A stretch of DNA of 64,000 nt from Malacoraja senta (taxonomy: Eukaryota). Each line of letters begins with the position of its first letter. The stretch's first letter is position 1. Location: positions 1 through 64,000 of the forward strand of contig JAXLNO010005534.1 in NCBI GenBank assembly GCA_038087875.1, in the 5' to 3' direction. The position numbers were made by a program. Shown piece by piece: positions 21,001 to 32,500 of this stretch.

Positions 21001-23534
21001 TTGTTCCCAGTGCTCTGTCAGGTCAACAAAACACAGCCCCCATACGTTACCATGTTCCATAAATATTCACTGGACATGGTACTGGGATGTTGTCTATGTG
21101 GAGTTTGCATGTTCTCCCTGTGAGCACGTGGGATTTCTCCCGGTGCTCCGGTTTCCTCGCACATCTCAATGATGTACAGGTTTGTAGGTGAGTTGGCCTT
21201 TGTAAAATTGCCCTAGTGTATGGAAAGCGGATGTGAAAGAGGGATAACATAGAACTGGTGTGCAGGATGGATGGTATCAACTCGATGAGCTGAAGGCTCT
21301 GCATCCATGCTGTATAACTCAACTAAACTAAGCAATATTATCTAAGCTGTGGTGTAGAGCGTGGTTCGTATTGAAAACAAAGATCCTTGTTGACTGGCCC
21401 ATCAAATACTTGAAGCACTGAGTAAAGCATTAAATGCAAAGGCAATTACTTCTCCACTACACCATCAGGTATGTGAACAAGGAATGCAGGTTACAGTATG
21501 TGACAAAGAGAAGTGGCAAAATAACTAGGAACGAACTGCAGATGCAGGTTTAACCCGAAGATAGGCTCAAAAAGCTGAAGTGACTCAGCGGGTCAAACAG
21601 CATTTCTGGAGTCTGAACAAGGGTCTCATCCCGAAATGTCACCTATGCCTTGTATCCAGAGATGCTGTCTGATCCGGTGAGTTTCTCCAACTTTTTGTGT
21701 CTATCTCTGGCAAGATATGTATATGATGTTTGAGAGGCTTTTAGATCGACAAACTGACCTGCAGGAAATAGAGGGATATGGATCATGTTGCAGTTGGATG
21801 GGATCAGTTTAGCATCTCATCATGTTCACCACAGACATTGTGGGCCAAAGGGCCTCTTCCTGAGATGAATATTTTTATGTTTTTTATAAAATAAGATTAG
21901 TAATCAGCTGTAAGCCCCCTTGAACAGACTGCATCATTCAATAACATTATGTCCAATCTGATTTTGATCAGTTTACTGCATTATTCCTGCTACCTTTGAT
22001 TAATTTCTGATCTAAAATTCTCTATATCTCAACCTGGAAAATATTCATTCACCTTGTCTTCACAGCTGGAATAGAATGTTCAGGCAAATCATACACCTCC
22101 TGGAAAATAAATCTTCTTCGTAACTATTTTAAAGAGGGACCCAACATGGGAGGACAGCCGAGAACAAAGATAACAAAGTGGGTCCCGGGGTTGGGGGGGG
22201 AGGGGGCGCAGATAACACAGGTGAACCCAACATGGAGGGGCTGCCGAGAACAAAGAGGGACCATTGGAGACTGTAATGATTACTTTGTAACTGTGTCGGC
22301 ACCCTATACATGGTGACTCTTTCTATACCTTGTGTATGTTATGCAAAGCAAAGAATCTCACTGTGACATGTCACATGTGATAATAAAGTATCAATCAGTC
22401 AAATAGGCGACCTCTTATTCCAAAATGTGGCACAATGTATGACTTTGGAATCACTGGGTAACTGGTGAAGACAGCAGTTGAAAAATTAATGGCTGAATGT
22501 AAAGCCACCAGTCAGCATTGATACAATAAAGAGCATAGAACATAGAACAGTACAGCACAAGAACAGTCCCTTTGACCCACAATGTTTGTGCCGAACATGA
22601 TGCCAAGACCAATTGTTATCTGCTTGCACATAATCCATATCCATTCATTCCCTGCATATACATGTGCCTATCTAAAAGTCTCTTAAATGCCACTATCATA
22701 TCTGCTTCCACCACCACCCCCGGCAGCACATTCCAGTCACTCGCCACCCTTGGCGTAAAACACTTGACCTGCACATCTTTTTTAAACTTTGCCACTCATT
22801 GTAAAGCTATACCTGCTCTTATTTGATATTTCCTTCCTGGGTAAAAAGTCTGATGGTCTACACTATCTGTACTCCTCCCAGTTTGATATATTACTGTCAG
22901 GTCTCCCCTCAATCCCCGACATTCCAGAGAAAACAATCCAAGTCTGTCCAACTTCTCCCTGTGGCTAATACCCCACTAATCCAGACATCATTCCGGTAGA
23001 CCTCCTCTGCTTCCCAACGGAAGCTGGTTGTGCTTCATGGTCACTGCAGTCCTCTCCTGGTCTCTGCTGTTGTCAGCTGGTCCCTGTTCATTGAGAATTT
23101 TTCTCCTTTTCCTCTTCTTCCAGCAACCAATTCCAAGGATGATCCCCAGGAGAATAAGAGGAACGATTACAGCTCCAGTCACGATCCTAATCTTTATATC
23201 TTCTTTTGCTGCCCTCTCTGTTGGCAGATATAGGGCATTTTAAACATTTATTGATCAATAACGACATTGTAATGATTTTATTTTTTTGAATTTAATCTTT
23301 TTATTTGAATTTCACGGCAATTAACATACATACAATAATAACAGACAGTAATAATCAAGGCATAATTGTACAACAGTATGTAAGCGATCCTCAAAACCTT
23401 TACCCATACTCACCTTCAACCCACCCAAGTCAGGTCGGAGCCAAACGGGGACAAACAACACTCACATACGTACACATCCACACACAAATGGTAGAATAGG
23501 CGAAACAAAATGTGCTATATAAAAGAAATAAAAA

Positions 23535-23596
<62 letters not shown>

Positions 23597-29500: not shown

Positions 29501-32500
29501 CTGGATATTGTCCAGCTTCGTTTCCAATTTGGTGAACGCAGTGTTAAATTCTGCCAGTAACAATACCTTATGTTCTGTTAACATGGCTGCTAGCGTGGCC
29601 ATACTGGCGCTGGTCGCCGGGTCTTCTGTCTTTTGCTCCGCTTTCTTTCCTTTGTTTGGCATCTTTACAGCATAGACAGGTACTCACAATGATGTTTAAA
29701 TGTTTGTGGGTGGTTAAAAAACTTAGACTGAGCTGTAATAAAAGTTGGAGGTGAAAAGGTCGGGAGCGTGGAAAAGTGCGACTACTCCAGCATGTCGCCC
29801 CCACCGGAAGTCCTGTAATGATTTTATTATCTACATTAAACTAGCATTGTTCACATCTAAATAAAAATAACAAAGTCTTAGATTTATGTAATTGTCCAGA
29901 CTATGGATGTTTAAATAGATCAATGAAAAATCTTTGAAGTTCATATTAGCGTTGAGATTTTATCTGCAGCATTTAATTATGAATTTAAAGAATCAAGCAT
30001 ATGTCAGAAATAGATGACTATATGCAGTGTAGAGGTCAACAAGGCTATTTTCTTATGTTGACCATTGTTATTTTAGCAAATAAAAGTGAACCCACTTATA
30101 GTTGATAAAACTTCAAAGGTTTTAAACTTTGCTGATATTTCAATATCTGAGAGTTTGATATTCTCACACACACACACACTCTCTTTCTCTCCCTCCCTCC
30201 CTCCCTCTCCCCCTCTCTCTGTCTCACACACATGAGCGCACACAAACACACACACGCGCGCGCACACACACACACATAGGCACACTCAGACATTAACACT
30301 ACTGTCTATTTGTAGTGACCAGCAATTTTAACCATGTCAGCTTGGCCCTGGTGTGAAGATATTTGCAGAGGTTTTGACTGGAACAAATAAGTCAGCTACA
30401 GAACAGGTGCTGCTACTTCAGACTGATAATGGGGTTGGATGTGGGACCACTATTGGCCTTTTGTGCAACTAGCTACTATAAAAAAATTAGCTAGATGCCC
30501 AAGAAATAAGATAAGAGACCTTGGCCAGGATCAGCCTATCTTGCTTCCTACATTTGGATCTGTGAGTTAAGGGTGACATAAGAATATTTTTTACCATTGG
30601 AGCAGAAGTAGGCCTTTCAGTCCATTGAGTCTACTCCACCATTCAGTCATGGCAGATCTATTTTTACCTCTGAATCCCATTCTCCAGCCTTCTCCCTGTA
30701 ACCTTTGGCAGCCATATTAATCAAGAACCTATCATTCTCTGCTTTAAAATATGCAATGACTTGACCCACACAGCTGTCTGTATCAATGAATTCCACAGAT
30801 TCACCACCCTGTGACTAATGAAATTCCTCCTCATCTCCATTTTGAAAGTACGTATTTTTATTGTGAGGCTGTGCTAGACTCTCCCATTACTGAAAACATC
30901 CTATCCACATCCACTAACTGGGACTTTCATTAACTGGTATGTTTCAGAGATTCCCCCCTCATCCTTCTAAATCCCACGAGCGCAGGCACAGAGACTTCAA
31001 ACATTCCTCATACGTTAAATCAATCATCCCCAGGACACACTTCCTCTGGACCCTCTCCAAAGCCAGCACATCCTTTCTAATATGGAGCCCAAAACTGCTC
31101 ACAATATTTCAAATGTATCCTCACCAGTGCCCGATAAATCCTCAGCATTATATCATTGTTTTTATCTTCTAGTCCCCCCGAAATGTCCCCCCTAAACTTC
31201 TAGTCCCCCCGAATTAAGGGACAGAAGTTTAGGGGTAACATGAGGGGGAACTTCTTTACTCAGAGAGTGGTGGCTGTGTGGAATGAGCTTCCAGTGAAGG
31301 TGGTGGAGGCAGGTTCGTTTTTATCGTTTAAAAATAAATTGGATAGTTATATGGACGGGAAAGGAATGGAGGGTTATGGTCTGAGCGCAGGTATATGGGA
31401 TTAGGGGAGAATACGTGTTCGGCACGGACTAGAAGGGTCGAGATGGCCTTTTTCCGTGCTGTAATTGTTATATGGTTATATGGTTAAATGAATGCTGGCA
31501 TTGCATTTGCCTTACTTACCACTGACTCAATCTGCAAATGAACTATTTGGGAATCCTGCACTAGTACTCCCACTTTGTAGCTCAGATTTCTGAATTCTCT
31601 CCCCATTTATTAAATAGTCTATGTCTTTATTCCGACTGCCAAAATGTAAAACCAGACACTTGCTACACTGTATTACATTTGGCTCTGCTTTGCCCACTCG
31701 GTGGAACTGCTGCCTTACAGCGCCAGAGACCCGGTTCAATTCTGACTACGGGTCCCGTCTGTACAGAGGTTTGTACCTTCTCCCCGGGACTTGCGTGGGT
31801 TTTACCCTGGATCTCCGGTTTCCTCCCTCAGTCCAAAGACATACAGGTTTGTAGGTTAATTGGCTTGGTATAATTGTAAATTGTCCCCTAATAAGTAAGA
31901 TAATGTAAGTGTGCAGGGATCGCTGGTTGACGCAGACTCGTGGGCCAAAGGGCCGGTTTCTGCGCTGTATCTCTTAAAGTAAAACCACATTCCATTGACT
32001 ATCAATAATTCTGGGCAATTAGATAACCACAAATTAATAATGGGTGGCACAGTGGCGTAGCGGTAGAGCTGCTGCCTTACTGCACCAGAGACCTGGGTTT
32101 GATCCTGACTACAGGTGCTGTCTGCAAGGACATTGTATGTTCTCCCTGTGACTGCGTGGGTTTTCTCCGGGTGCTCCGGTTTCCTCCCACACTCCAAAGG
32201 CATACAGGCTTGAAGGTTACTTGGCTTAGGTAAAATTGTAAATTGTCCCCAGTGTGTTGGTTAGTGTAAATGTACGGGATGATCACTGTTCAGCGAGGAC
32301 TCAGTGAGCTGTGGGGCCTGTATCTGCACCATATCTCTAAAGTCTAAAATCTAAATGCACAGTTTAGTTAAGAGTGTGTTGAGGCTGTTATCTCAGTCCA
32401 GGACGTTTATTGTCTCAAGTGATCAGCCTCATTGACTTGCCACTTACCCTGTGGAACATTGACTCCCTGCAGCAGAGTTGCATGTTCGATGTAACAGGAG

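What the first reader, a model, noticed from the sequence alone, without database searches (positions are those of the whole stretch)
23218..29828. Full-length sense-oriented L1 inserted 50 nt upstream of the TM-exon acceptor
Seen: a 6.5-kb L1 with a perfect 15-bp TSD lies in the alpha3-TM intron, on the same strand as the gene. Its AATAAA and poly(A) end about 50 nt before the 3' splice site, close to the expected branch-point zone. The empty allele would have an intron of about 2.7 kb. Established: sense intronic L1s cause premature polyadenylation and elongation defects. Inference: the insertion could convert a membrane MHC-like protein into a truncated or secreted form, silence it, or let the L1 5' promoter (ETS-like ACTTCCGG at the 5' end) drive TM-exon-only transcripts. 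Intact ORF1 and TSD suggest it is recent and perhaps polymorphic.
Basis: partly seen in the sequence, partly recalled or inferred. Interest (0 to 1): 0.65.

Follow-up and report, generated by a model that had tools for sequence, protein, structure and literature searches.

The report
Young L1 inside skate MHC-like gene
A recently inserted, full-length but no longer intact L1 jumping gene sits in the last intron of a skate MHC class I-like gene; this is an ordinary kind of event, and sequence alone cannot show whether it affects the gene.

Summary
A 6,531-bp L1-clade LINE lies on the minus strand (29813→23283), flanked by a perfect 15-bp target-site duplication. It sits in the same orientation as a five-exon MHC class I-like gene, in the intron between the alpha3 exon and the TM/cytoplasmic exon. 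Without the insertion that intron would be 2,684 nt.

Corrections:
- The L1 ends 65 nt before the acceptor.
- The A tail is only 5-7 A.
- ORF1 is open, but ORF2 is broken three times as assembled: two frame changes at homopolymer runs and one stop codon.

The element starts with the 5'-terminal motif conserved in zebrafish L1s, so it is truly full-length. Its CpG content (o/e 0.71, against 0.23-0.41 in the introns) marks it as young.

The host gene has all five exons open with GT-AG introns. Eight of ten fetched elasmobranch homologues join alpha3 directly to this TM exon.

The proposed harm is untested. This L1 is not A-rich (27% A) and has no excess of poly(A) hexamers, and the only branch-point candidate (-38) is untouched. 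However, its own poly(A) signal lies 83 nt upstream of a comparatively weak acceptor.

Verdict: an ordinary intronic LINE insertion of low interest.

The parts
29814..29828 (-). Target-site duplication, copy at the L1 5' end
   Evidence: Exact 15-nt direct repeat, (family D5); sequence seen
23283..29813 (-). Full-length L1-clade LINE, 6,531 bp
   Evidence: Bounded by the TSD; EN and RT domains; LINE-1 ORF1p/ORF2p are the best solved-structure matches; no second copy in the window
29663..29813 (-). L1 5'UTR, 151 nt. It begins GGACTTCCGGTG, 11 of 12 identical to the zebrafish L1 5'-terminal consensus
   Evidence: sequence; only match in the window; consensus quoted in PMC5381506 (passage)
28841..29662 (-). 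L1 ORF1, open, 273 aa plus stop
   Evidence: 86% identical over 100% of its length to a 273-aa Leucoraja erinacea protein; LINE-1 ORF1p E 1.7e-10 over residues 107-262; Pfam Transposase_22 only 15.4 bits, below the 22.4 cut-off
27608..28840 (-). ORF1-ORF2 spacer, 1,233 nt, with T-rich short repeats
   Evidence: (family D2); a long spacer with T-rich repeats is the fish L1 pattern (PMC5381506, passages)
23817..27607 (-). L1 ORF2 (EN, RT, Cys-rich C-terminus). Colinear with full-length L1 ORF2 proteins but in four open pieces
   Evidence: tblastn with P0096, 1,227 aa, and P0103, 1,269 aa
26504..26516 (-). ORF2 lesion 1: frame change at a T6 run
25432..25434 (-). ORF2 lesion 2: in-frame TAA where homologues have a residue
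24779..24790 (-). ORF2 lesion 3: frame change at or beside an A5 run
23283..23816 (-). L1 3'UTR. Contains AATAAA at 23305-23300, ATTAAA at 23296-23291 and the A tail at 23287-23283
23453..23678 (.). 226-nt palindrome inside the L1 3'UTR, centred on a (TA)n run; 113-nt arms with one mismatch
   Evidence: pair I1, 99% complementary, no spacer; RNA fold -165 kcal/mol, z -30.9
23268..23282 (-). Target-site duplication, copy at the L1 3' end (positions -65 to -51 from exon 5)
23218..23267 (-). Last 50 nt of intron 4, untouched. Contains the branch-point candidate TTGAT (A at 23255, -38), a weak pyrimidine tract and the acceptor AG at 23219-23218
22988..23217 (-). Host exon 5: connecting peptide, TM and cytoplasmic tail, with TGA stop at 22990-22988
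   Evidence: 87% identical to the C-terminus of L. erinacea P0005
32448..32720 (-). Host exon 4: alpha3, Ig C1-set
   Evidence: (C1-set, 54.7 bits)
33925..34206 (-). Host exon 3: alpha2
   Evidence: (MHC_I, 60.2 bits); acceptor chosen by colinearity with the homologues
35958..36218 (-). Host exon 2: alpha1
   Evidence: MHC_I, 20 bits, below cut-off; 95% identical to P0005
45278..45329 (-). Host exon 1: leader, 17 codons plus 1 base, GT donor
   Evidence: Scan; sequence; resembles the N-termini of P0009 and P0013

Best explanation
A fish-type L1 retrotransposon was copied by target-primed reverse transcription into intron 4 of a non-classical-looking MHC class I gene of a skate. It lies on the gene's sense strand, 65 nt upstream of the exon that encodes the transmembrane and cytoplasmic parts.

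Shown:
- The element is complete from the conserved L1 5' terminus to its own AATAAA and short A tail.
- It duplicated 15 nt of an A/T-rich target.
- It keeps an open ORF1. As assembled, it has lost ORF2 through two frame changes and one stop codon.
- It still has far more CpG than the surrounding DNA.
- The host gene has five open exons with phase-1 GT-AG introns.

Inferred:
- The insertion is evolutionarily recent but is not necessarily polymorphic.
- It most likely behaves as a tolerated intronic passenger. The acceptor, its pyrimidine tract and the only branch-point candidate are unchanged, the element is not A-rich, and it carries no more poly(A) hexamers than the rest of the gene.
- The one feature that could divert part of the transcripts is the L1's own poly(A) signal. 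It once worked for the element's RNA, and it now lies 83 nt before a rather weak acceptor.
- Transcripts ending there would retain the start of intron 4 and encode alpha1-alpha3 plus 13 residues, with no membrane anchor.
For: L1 identity and completeness:
- TSD.
- Domains. LINE-1 ORF2p and ORF1p are the best PDB matches.
- ORF2 is colinear with 1,227- and 1,269-aa L1 ORF2 proteins.
- The first 12 nt match the zebrafish L1 5'-terminal consensus at 11 of 12 positions.
- The part lengths of this copy (5'UTR 151 nt, ORF1 822, ORF2 about 3,788, 3'UTR about 535) fall within the zebrafish ranges of 113-267, 780-1,059, 3,516-3,837 and 167-2,157 (PMC5381506, table passage).
- Target and tail.

Youth: CpG o/e is 0.71 in the L1. 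It is 0.23-0.41 in introns 1-4 and 0.29-0.37 in three other RT ORFs of the window.

Host gene:
- Exon by exon.
- 12 homologues with E <= 0.001 among 24 candidates. 10 of the 12 were fetched. 8 of those 10 join alpha3 directly to the TM segment, one has 7 extra residues, and one lacks the TM part.

Little reason for a strong effect: 27% A and 1.38 against 1.2 hexamers per kb; the branch-point candidate at -38 and the 50 nt plus TSD are unchanged.

Precedent: PMC3192792 (passage) states that roughly 1,000 of 7,000 full-length human L1s lie in tandem with host genes. The arrangement is therefore common.
Against: - No transcript, population or cross-species DNA could be examined, so 'tolerated passenger' is an inference.
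- The exon-5 acceptor has the weakest pyrimidine tract of the gene: 11 of 20 against 14-15 of 20.
- A poly(A) signal with a proven past use lies 83 nt upstream of it.
- Full-length sense L1s reduce expression in human reporter assays partly through their 5'UTR, not only their ORFs (PMC3192792, passages).
- The open host exons say little. At the L1's own rate of 3 lesions in about 4.6 kb, only about 0.7 lesions would be expected in the 1,098-nt CDS (my arithmetic).
- The short A tail (5-7 A) and the three ORF2 lesions argue against a very recent, still polymorphic insertion. However, two of the lesions sit at homopolymers and could be assembly errors.
Confidence: 0.7

Rival explanations
1. The sense L1 materially changes the gene's output. 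Polyadenylation at or inside the L1 turns a membrane class I-like protein mainly into a secreted alpha1-alpha3 form, or lowers expression strongly.
For: - Sense orientation.
- The element's own AATAAA and ATTAAA lie 83 and 74 nt before exon 5.
- Exon 5 has the weakest acceptor tract in the gene.
- Human full-length sense L1s impair elongation and cause premature polyadenylation (PMC3192792, passages; PMC5381506, introduction passage).
- Read-through of the alpha3 donor meets a stop after 13 codons (ORF 32407..32769).
Against: - The element has 27% A on the sense strand, against 42% in mammalian ORF2.
- Its hexamer density equals the gene's background.
- The rest of intron 4 already holds 7 such hexamers in 2.7 kb.
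- The acceptor region up to -65 is unchanged.
- L1 poly(A) signals are described as weak and often bypassed (PMC5381506, passage).
- All host exons are still open.
Confidence: 0.15
2. The host copy is a redundant or decaying member of a multi-copy class Ib family. The L1 is tolerated because the copy no longer matters.
For: - Leucoraja erinacea has at least two different relatives on separate contigs: P0005, and P0016, which lacks a TM part.
- The window's exons are 85-96% identical to P0005, not identical.
- Reviews describe multicopy class Ib families (UBA, UEA) in elasmobranchs (PMC10751288; PMC12562908; passages).
- No protein identical to the window's alpha2 or alpha3 exon was found in the protein collection.
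Against: - All five exons are open and all four introns are GT-AG in phase 1.
- The paired cysteines of alpha2 and alpha3 are present (direct reading).
- The lineage is strongly conserved across sharks and rays: 71-87% identity in alpha2.
Confidence: 0.1
3. Assembly artefact: the L1 was placed here by mis-assembly of a repeat.
For: The two frame changes lie at homopolymers, and there is an almost perfect 226-nt palindrome. Both are features that sequencing or assembly can produce.
Against: - An exact 15-nt duplication of unique intron sequence abuts the element's true 5' terminus and its A tail. A collapse or chimera would not create this.
- There are no N in the window.
- The palindrome arms differ at one position.
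Confidence: 0.03

Closest known systems
Zebrafish/teleost-type L1 families, as described in 'The Evolution of LINE-1 in Vertebrates', PMC5381506
   Same: - Short 5'UTR (151 nt; zebrafish 113-267).
- The same 5'-terminal motif (11 of 12).
- ORF1 and ORF2 of the usual sizes.
- A long ORF1-ORF2 spacer with T-rich short repeats, and an AT-rich 3'UTR.
- ORF1 is 50-69% identical to the listed teleost-named L1 ORF1 proteins, best 67%.

   Different: - The host is a cartilaginous fish.
[quoted passage not shown]
- ORF2 has 27% A and 44.5% G+C, against 33.7% A (frog and zebrafish) and 35.9% G+C (zebrafish).
- The 3'UTR carries a 226-nt palindrome.
Full-length human L1s lying in sense ('tandem') orientation in introns (PMC3192792; Han et al. 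2004 and Perepelitsa-Belancio & Deininger 2003, known to me only as cited there)
   Same: A full-length L1 on the host gene's sense strand inside an intron, carrying its own promoter end and poly(A) signal.
   Different: The human element is A-rich with 19 sense-strand poly(A) signals. This one is not A-rich and has 9 canonical hexamers, a density like its surroundings. No expression data exist here.
Elasmobranch non-classical MHC class I (class Ib) lineages UBA, UDA, UEA, UFA, UGA (PMC10751288; PMC12562908)
   Same: - Leader, alpha1, alpha2, alpha3 and TM exon plan with phase-1 introns.
- MHC_I and C1-set domains.
- Homologues in sharks, rays and sawfish, named 'MHC class I-related gene protein-like' by NCBI.
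   Different: I could not assign the gene to one of the named lineages because no reference sequences of them were at hand. The best solved-structure matches of the alpha2 exon are MR1 chains (E 2e-16). That is a resemblance, not orthology.

Membership tests
L1 clade of non-LTR retrotransposons | ORF2 with an N-terminal APE-type endonuclease followed by a reverse transcriptase, closest to L1 ORF2p | tested here: met
   Exo_endo_phos 68.2 bits and RVT_1 115.2 bits. PDB: LINE-1 ORF2p E 6e-42 (residues 3-364) and 2e-67 (364-725), against R2 at 2e-22.
L1 clade of non-LTR retrotransposons | ORF1 of the L1 type (RRM plus C-terminal domain) | tested here: met
   PDB LINE-1 ORF1p E 1.7e-10 over residues 107-262. 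Homologues are named 'L1 transposable element RRM domain-containing protein'. Pfam Transposase_22 covers 1-95 of 98 profile positions but scores 15.4 bits, below the 22.4 cut-off.
L1 clade of non-LTR retrotransposons | Insertion signature: A-tailed 3' end after AATAAA, a TSD of about 7-20 bp, and an A/T-rich target | tested here: met
   AATAAA at 23305-23300, an A5-7 tail, and a 15-bp exact TSD that begins AATAAAA on the element's strand. The preferred target motif is recalled, not from a call.
L1 clade of non-LTR retrotransposons | Placement inside the L1 clade on an RT tree against other LINE clades | not tested
   No tree was built. The ranking of PDB matches (L1 far above R2) stands in for it.
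Full-length fish-type L1 | Starts at the conserved 5' terminus and has all parts at the expected sizes | tested here: met
   11 of 12 match to the published zebrafish consensus, directly after the TSD. The spacer is longer than the published range.
Retrotransposition-competent (intact) L1 | Both ORFs open | tested here: not met
   ORF1 is open. ORF2 is in four pieces, with two frame changes and one TAA. Two lesions lie at homopolymers, so assembly error is not excluded.
MHC class I heavy chain (host gene) | Alpha1/alpha2 MHC_I fold domains, an Ig C1-set alpha3 and a TM segment, each on its own phase-1 exon | tested here: met
   Alpha2 MHC_I 60.2 bits and alpha3 C1-set 54.7 bits. Alpha1 scores only 20 bits, below cut-off, but is 95% identical to the alpha1 of P0005. 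Exon phases were read.
Classical (Ia) versus non-classical (Ib) class I | Conserved peptide-terminus-binding residues, high polymorphism, ubiquitous expression | not tested
   Only names given by a source ('class I-related') and high cross-species conservation point to class Ib. No residue-by-residue check was made and no population data were available.
Gene-disrupting sense intronic L1 (mammalian model) | A-rich sense strand with an excess of poly(A) signals | tested here: not met
   27.2% A. 9 hexamers, or 1.38 per kb, against 1.2 per kb in the rest of the gene.
Gene-disrupting sense intronic L1 (mammalian model) | Host transcripts that end in the L1, or reduced host expression | not testable with these tools
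   No transcript collection for this organism. The search for short protein fragments with the alpha3 exon found none.

The most novel reading that the evidence does not exclude
The insertion is a recent, possibly still segregating allele. Through the L1's own poly(A) signal 83 nt before a weak acceptor, it switches a deeply conserved elasmobranch class Ib molecule from a membrane-bound to a largely secreted alpha1-alpha3 form. That would be a natural membrane/soluble polymorphism created by a LINE.
Probability: 0.08. Interest if true: 0.5.

Novelty: new member of a known kind. Interest (0 to 1): 0.2.

Why it matters
As it stands, this is one more intronic LINE insertion in a repeat-rich genome.

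It would matter to immunogeneticists only if the filled allele changes the output of a class Ib gene that is conserved from sharks to rays.

For people who study transposons the element is a useful specimen. It is a nearly intact, full-length L1 from a cartilaginous fish that carries the same 5'-terminal motif as zebrafish L1s. That suggests the start-site signal is older and more widely shared than a comparison of three non-mammalian species could show.

Tried and rejected
1. Self-comparison of the L1 against the rest of the window (blastn, E <= 1e-5) found 0 matches. No second copy was therefore available to date the insertion.
2. Search of the protein collection with the alpha3 exon at 'near' lengths, looking for transcript-derived fragments that show either the spliced or the read-through C-terminus. 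There was 1 candidate and none scored.
3. The alpha2 exon search found no protein identical to the window's (best 96%). No annotated model of this very locus could be consulted.
5. Rfam over the whole window gave 0 families at gathering score.
6. A first scan for the leader exon with a strict hydrophobicity rule gave only implausible candidates. A relaxed scan requiring a final G and a GT donor found it.
7. Pfam on ORF1 at E <= 0.01 gave nothing. At E <= 10 it gave only a sub-threshold Transposase_22 match.
8. The first choice of alpha1 donor and alpha2 acceptor was revised after comparison with homologues.
9. Assignment to a named elasmobranch class Ib lineage was abandoned for lack of reference sequences.
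10. Not done:
- the joined spliced coding sequence was neither built nor searched, and the exons were handled one by one;
- no splice-site or exonization scoring inside the L1;
- no RT tree.
No orthologous or allelic DNA was examined.

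
Full report
**What the window is.** The window has no N. Its genes and repeats are those of a cartilaginous fish. The closest named proteins to both the host gene and the L1 ORF1 come from the little skate Leucoraja erinacea (96% and 86% identity). I take it for a skate, not for human. Everything in the finding lies on the minus strand.

**The observation.** The repeat finder on 22800-30300 reports two exact copies of a 15-nt string, at 23268-23282 and 29814-29828, 6,546 nt apart. 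The only other two-copy direct repeats are 13-14 nt and imperfect.
- The 6,531 nt between the copies read, on the minus strand, as a complete LINE.
- It begins directly after the upstream copy with GGACTTCCGGTG.
- It ends with AATAAA (23305-23300), ATTAAA (23296-23291) and a run of A that merges into the downstream copy.
- The tail is short: 5 A, or 7 if the first two bases of the duplicated target are counted.
- The duplicated target starts with an A-rich stretch on the element's strand. This fits priming on an A/T-rich nick site; that rule is recalled, not from a call.

**What the element is.**
- ORF1 (29662..28841) is open, 273 aa.
  - It is 86% identical over its whole length to a 273-aa skate protein.
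  - It is 50-69% identical to many teleost proteins that sources name LINE-1 ORF1 or L1 RRM domain proteins. In all, 79 proteins had E <= 0.001 among 910 candidates.
  - It matches solved LINE-1 ORF1p over the RRM and C-terminal domain (E 1.7e-10).
  - Pfam's Transposase_22 reaches only 15.4 bits, below its cut-off.
- The ORF2 region (27607..23817) holds Exo_endo_phos and RVT_1 domains. It matches solved LINE-1 ORF2p far better than R2 proteins.
- I ran a profile-free search of the representatives library with the RT piece. It gave 86,191 proteins at E <= 0.001 and listed 150.
- I used 2 of the 150 listed, both full-length: P0096 (1,227 aa) and P0103 (1,269 aa).
- tblastn of both against the window shows the region colinear from the first residues to the last, but in three frames.
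- Together with the three-frame map, this fixes three lesions:
  - a frame change at a T6 run near 26510;
  - a TAA at 25434-25432 where both homologues have a residue;
  - a frame change at or beside an A5 run near 24780.
- The copy therefore cannot move on its own as assembled. Because both frame changes sit at homopolymers, assembly error is not excluded. The stop codon would remain in any case.

**Is it full-length?** Yes, by two lines of evidence.
- The comparative study of vertebrate L1s, PMC5381506, gives the zebrafish 5'-terminal consensus as GGACTTCCGGTT (I saw passages through text searches). The skate element matches it at 11 of 12 positions directly after the TSD. This is the only match in the window at up to one mismatch.
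- The same paper's table passage gives zebrafish ranges that can be compared with this copy:

| Part | Zebrafish range (nt) | This copy (nt) |
|---|---|---|
| 5'UTR | 113-267 | 151 |
| ORF1 | 780-1,059 | 822 |
| Spacer | 311-730 | 1,233 |
| ORF2 | 3,516-3,837 | about 3,788 |
| 3'UTR | 167-2,157 | about 535 |

- Only the spacer is out of range. [quoted passage not shown] It does carry the T-rich short repeats described for fish.

**Age.**
- CpG observed/expected is 0.71 in the L1. It is 0.23-0.41 in the gene's four introns, 0.41 for the whole window, and 0.29-0.37 in three other RT-bearing ORFs of the window.
- With the perfect TSD and only three disabling lesions in about 4.6 kb of coding sequence, the element looks young relative to its surroundings.
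- Against a very recent, still segregating insertion stand the lesions themselves and the short tail. The rule that tails shorten with age is mammalian and recalled.
- No second copy is in the window, and no eukaryotic genome collection was available. I could not date the insertion or test polymorphism.

**The host gene.** I handled the model exon by exon. The joined coding sequence was not built or searched.
- The exons on the minus strand are:

| Exon | Coordinates |
|---|---|
| Leader | 45329..45278 |
| Alpha1 | 36218..35958 |
| Alpha2 | 34206..33925 |
| Alpha3 | 32720..32448 |
| Connecting peptide/TM/tail | 23217..22991, TGA at 22990-22988 |

- All introns are GT-AG and phase 1. The exon lengths sum to 1,098 nt, or 365 codons plus stop (my arithmetic).
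- Pfam gives MHC_I for alpha2 (60.2 bits) and C1-set for alpha3 (54.7 bits). For alpha1 it gives a sub-threshold MHC_I match (20 bits).
- The alpha2 exon found 12 proteins with E <= 0.001 among 24 candidates. All are elasmobranch 'MHC class I-related' predictions, at 71-96% identity.
- I fetched 10 of the 12.
  - In 8, the end of alpha3 is joined directly to a segment homologous to the window's exon 5.
  - One has 7 extra residues at the junction.
  - One ends without a TM part.
- tblastn of 3 of them against the window gives the same four colinear blocks and no second gene copy. The only other hit is a 15-16-residue match at E 0.45-0.72.
- Which named class Ib lineage this is I could not decide. 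The candidates are UBA, UDA, UEA, UFA and UGA (passages of PMC10751288, and PMC12562908).

**Position relative to the acceptor.**
- The last L1 base is at -66, the TSD copy spans -65 to -51, and the final 50 nt are original intron.
- The only yUnAy branch-point candidate in host sequence within the last 100 nt is TTGAT, with its A at -38. It is untouched. Because of the duplication, the sequence is unchanged up to -65.
- The pyrimidine tract of this acceptor is weaker than those of the other three acceptors: 11 of 20 against 14-15 of 20.

**Does the known mechanism transfer?**
- The evidence for harm from sense intronic L1s comes from mammalian elements. PMC3192792 (passages) cites 19 poly(A) signals on the human L1 sense strand. 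It reports that full-length sense L1s depress transcription in reporters.
- PMC5381506 (passages) links this to the strong A bias. ORF2 has 42.2% A in mammals and lizard, and 33.7% in frog and zebrafish.
- The skate copy has 27.2% A overall and 27.4% in ORF2. It has 9 AATAAA/ATTAAA on the sense strand, 1.38 per kb, against 1.2 per kb in the rest of the gene. The rest of intron 4 already holds 7.
- The composition-based part of the mechanism is therefore not met here.
- What remains is the element's terminal poly(A) signal. It was evidently used when the inserted RNA was made, and it now lies 83 nt before a weak acceptor.
- If it is used on host transcripts, the alpha3 donor is read through and the frame stops after 13 codons. 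That gives a protein without an anchor.
- The idea of TM-exon-only transcripts from the L1 promoter would not give a sensible protein. Exon 5 is entered in phase 1 and has no signal peptide.
- PMC3192792 also estimates that roughly 1,000 of 7,000 full-length human L1s lie in tandem with host genes, so the arrangement as such is common.

**Verdict.** The description is right, with small corrections. The element is a young, full-length, fish-type L1 with a dead or nearly dead ORF2. The host gene looks intact. This is a new member of a known kind and of low general interest.

**What stayed unchecked.**
- Transcripts, other individuals and other species.
- Other genomic copies of the family.
- Supplementary files of the papers, which I did not open.
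- The figures of PMC5381506. The alignment of 5' termini is a figure; I saw only the consensus quoted in the text.

Noticed in passing
window 23453-23678: A 226-nt palindrome with no spacer (113-nt arms, one mismatch), centred on a (TA)n run, lies inside the L1 3'UTR. As RNA it folds to -165 kcal/mol (z -30.9). I cannot tell whether it belongs to the L1 family, arose at this copy, or is an assembly product.
   Followed up: partly
window 29802-29813 (minus strand): The skate L1 starts with the 5'-terminal motif that PMC5381506 reports as the zebrafish consensus (11 of 12). That paper presents it as differing between species. A shared motif in a cartilaginous fish suggests the signal is much older or more widely shared. 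ORF1 is also 67-69% identical to its best non-skate relatives, one of which is named as a teleost.
   Followed up: partly
window 27608-28840: The ORF1-ORF2 spacer is 1,233 nt. [quoted passage not shown] It has no similarity elsewhere in the window.
   Followed up: no
window 22988-45329 (minus strand): The host is a class I-like gene whose alpha2 exon is 71-87% identical in sharks, rays and sawfish. Its best solved-structure matches are MR1 chains (E 2e-16). This looks like a strongly conserved class Ib lineage, which I could not name.
   Followed up: partly
window 22849-23010: A dispersed repeat with the tail of a CR1-like LINE overlaps the last 15-20 nt of the host coding sequence, its stop codon and the 3' flank. 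It is 72-74% identical to copies at 17587-17741 and 46404-46486. The end of the cytoplasmic tail may therefore be repeat-derived. The L. erinacea relative P0005 ends in the same way.
   Followed up: partly
window 23218-23240: The acceptor of the TM exon has the weakest pyrimidine tract of the gene's four acceptors: 11 of 20 against 14-15 of 20.
   Followed up: yes
window 1592-2917, 7814-9958, 19082-20146, 43088-43588, 52669-53526: The window is rich in other retroelement remains. Four ORFs have RVT_1 domains, all on the plus strand, and one minus-strand ORF has a weak GIY-YIG match, as in Penelope-like elements. All have low CpG, apart from the GIY-YIG ORF at 0.63.
   Followed up: partly
window 38550-39350 (plus strand): ORF translations in intron 1 look like the remains of a Tc1/mariner-type transposase. 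This impression comes from reading and was not tested against a family library.
   Followed up: no
proteins P0005 and P0016 (Leucoraja erinacea): The two skate relatives look like imperfect gene predictions. One carries residues that correspond to read-through of the alpha2 donor. The other lacks alpha1 and the TM part. This lineage seems hard to annotate and is present in more than one copy in skates.
   Followed up: no
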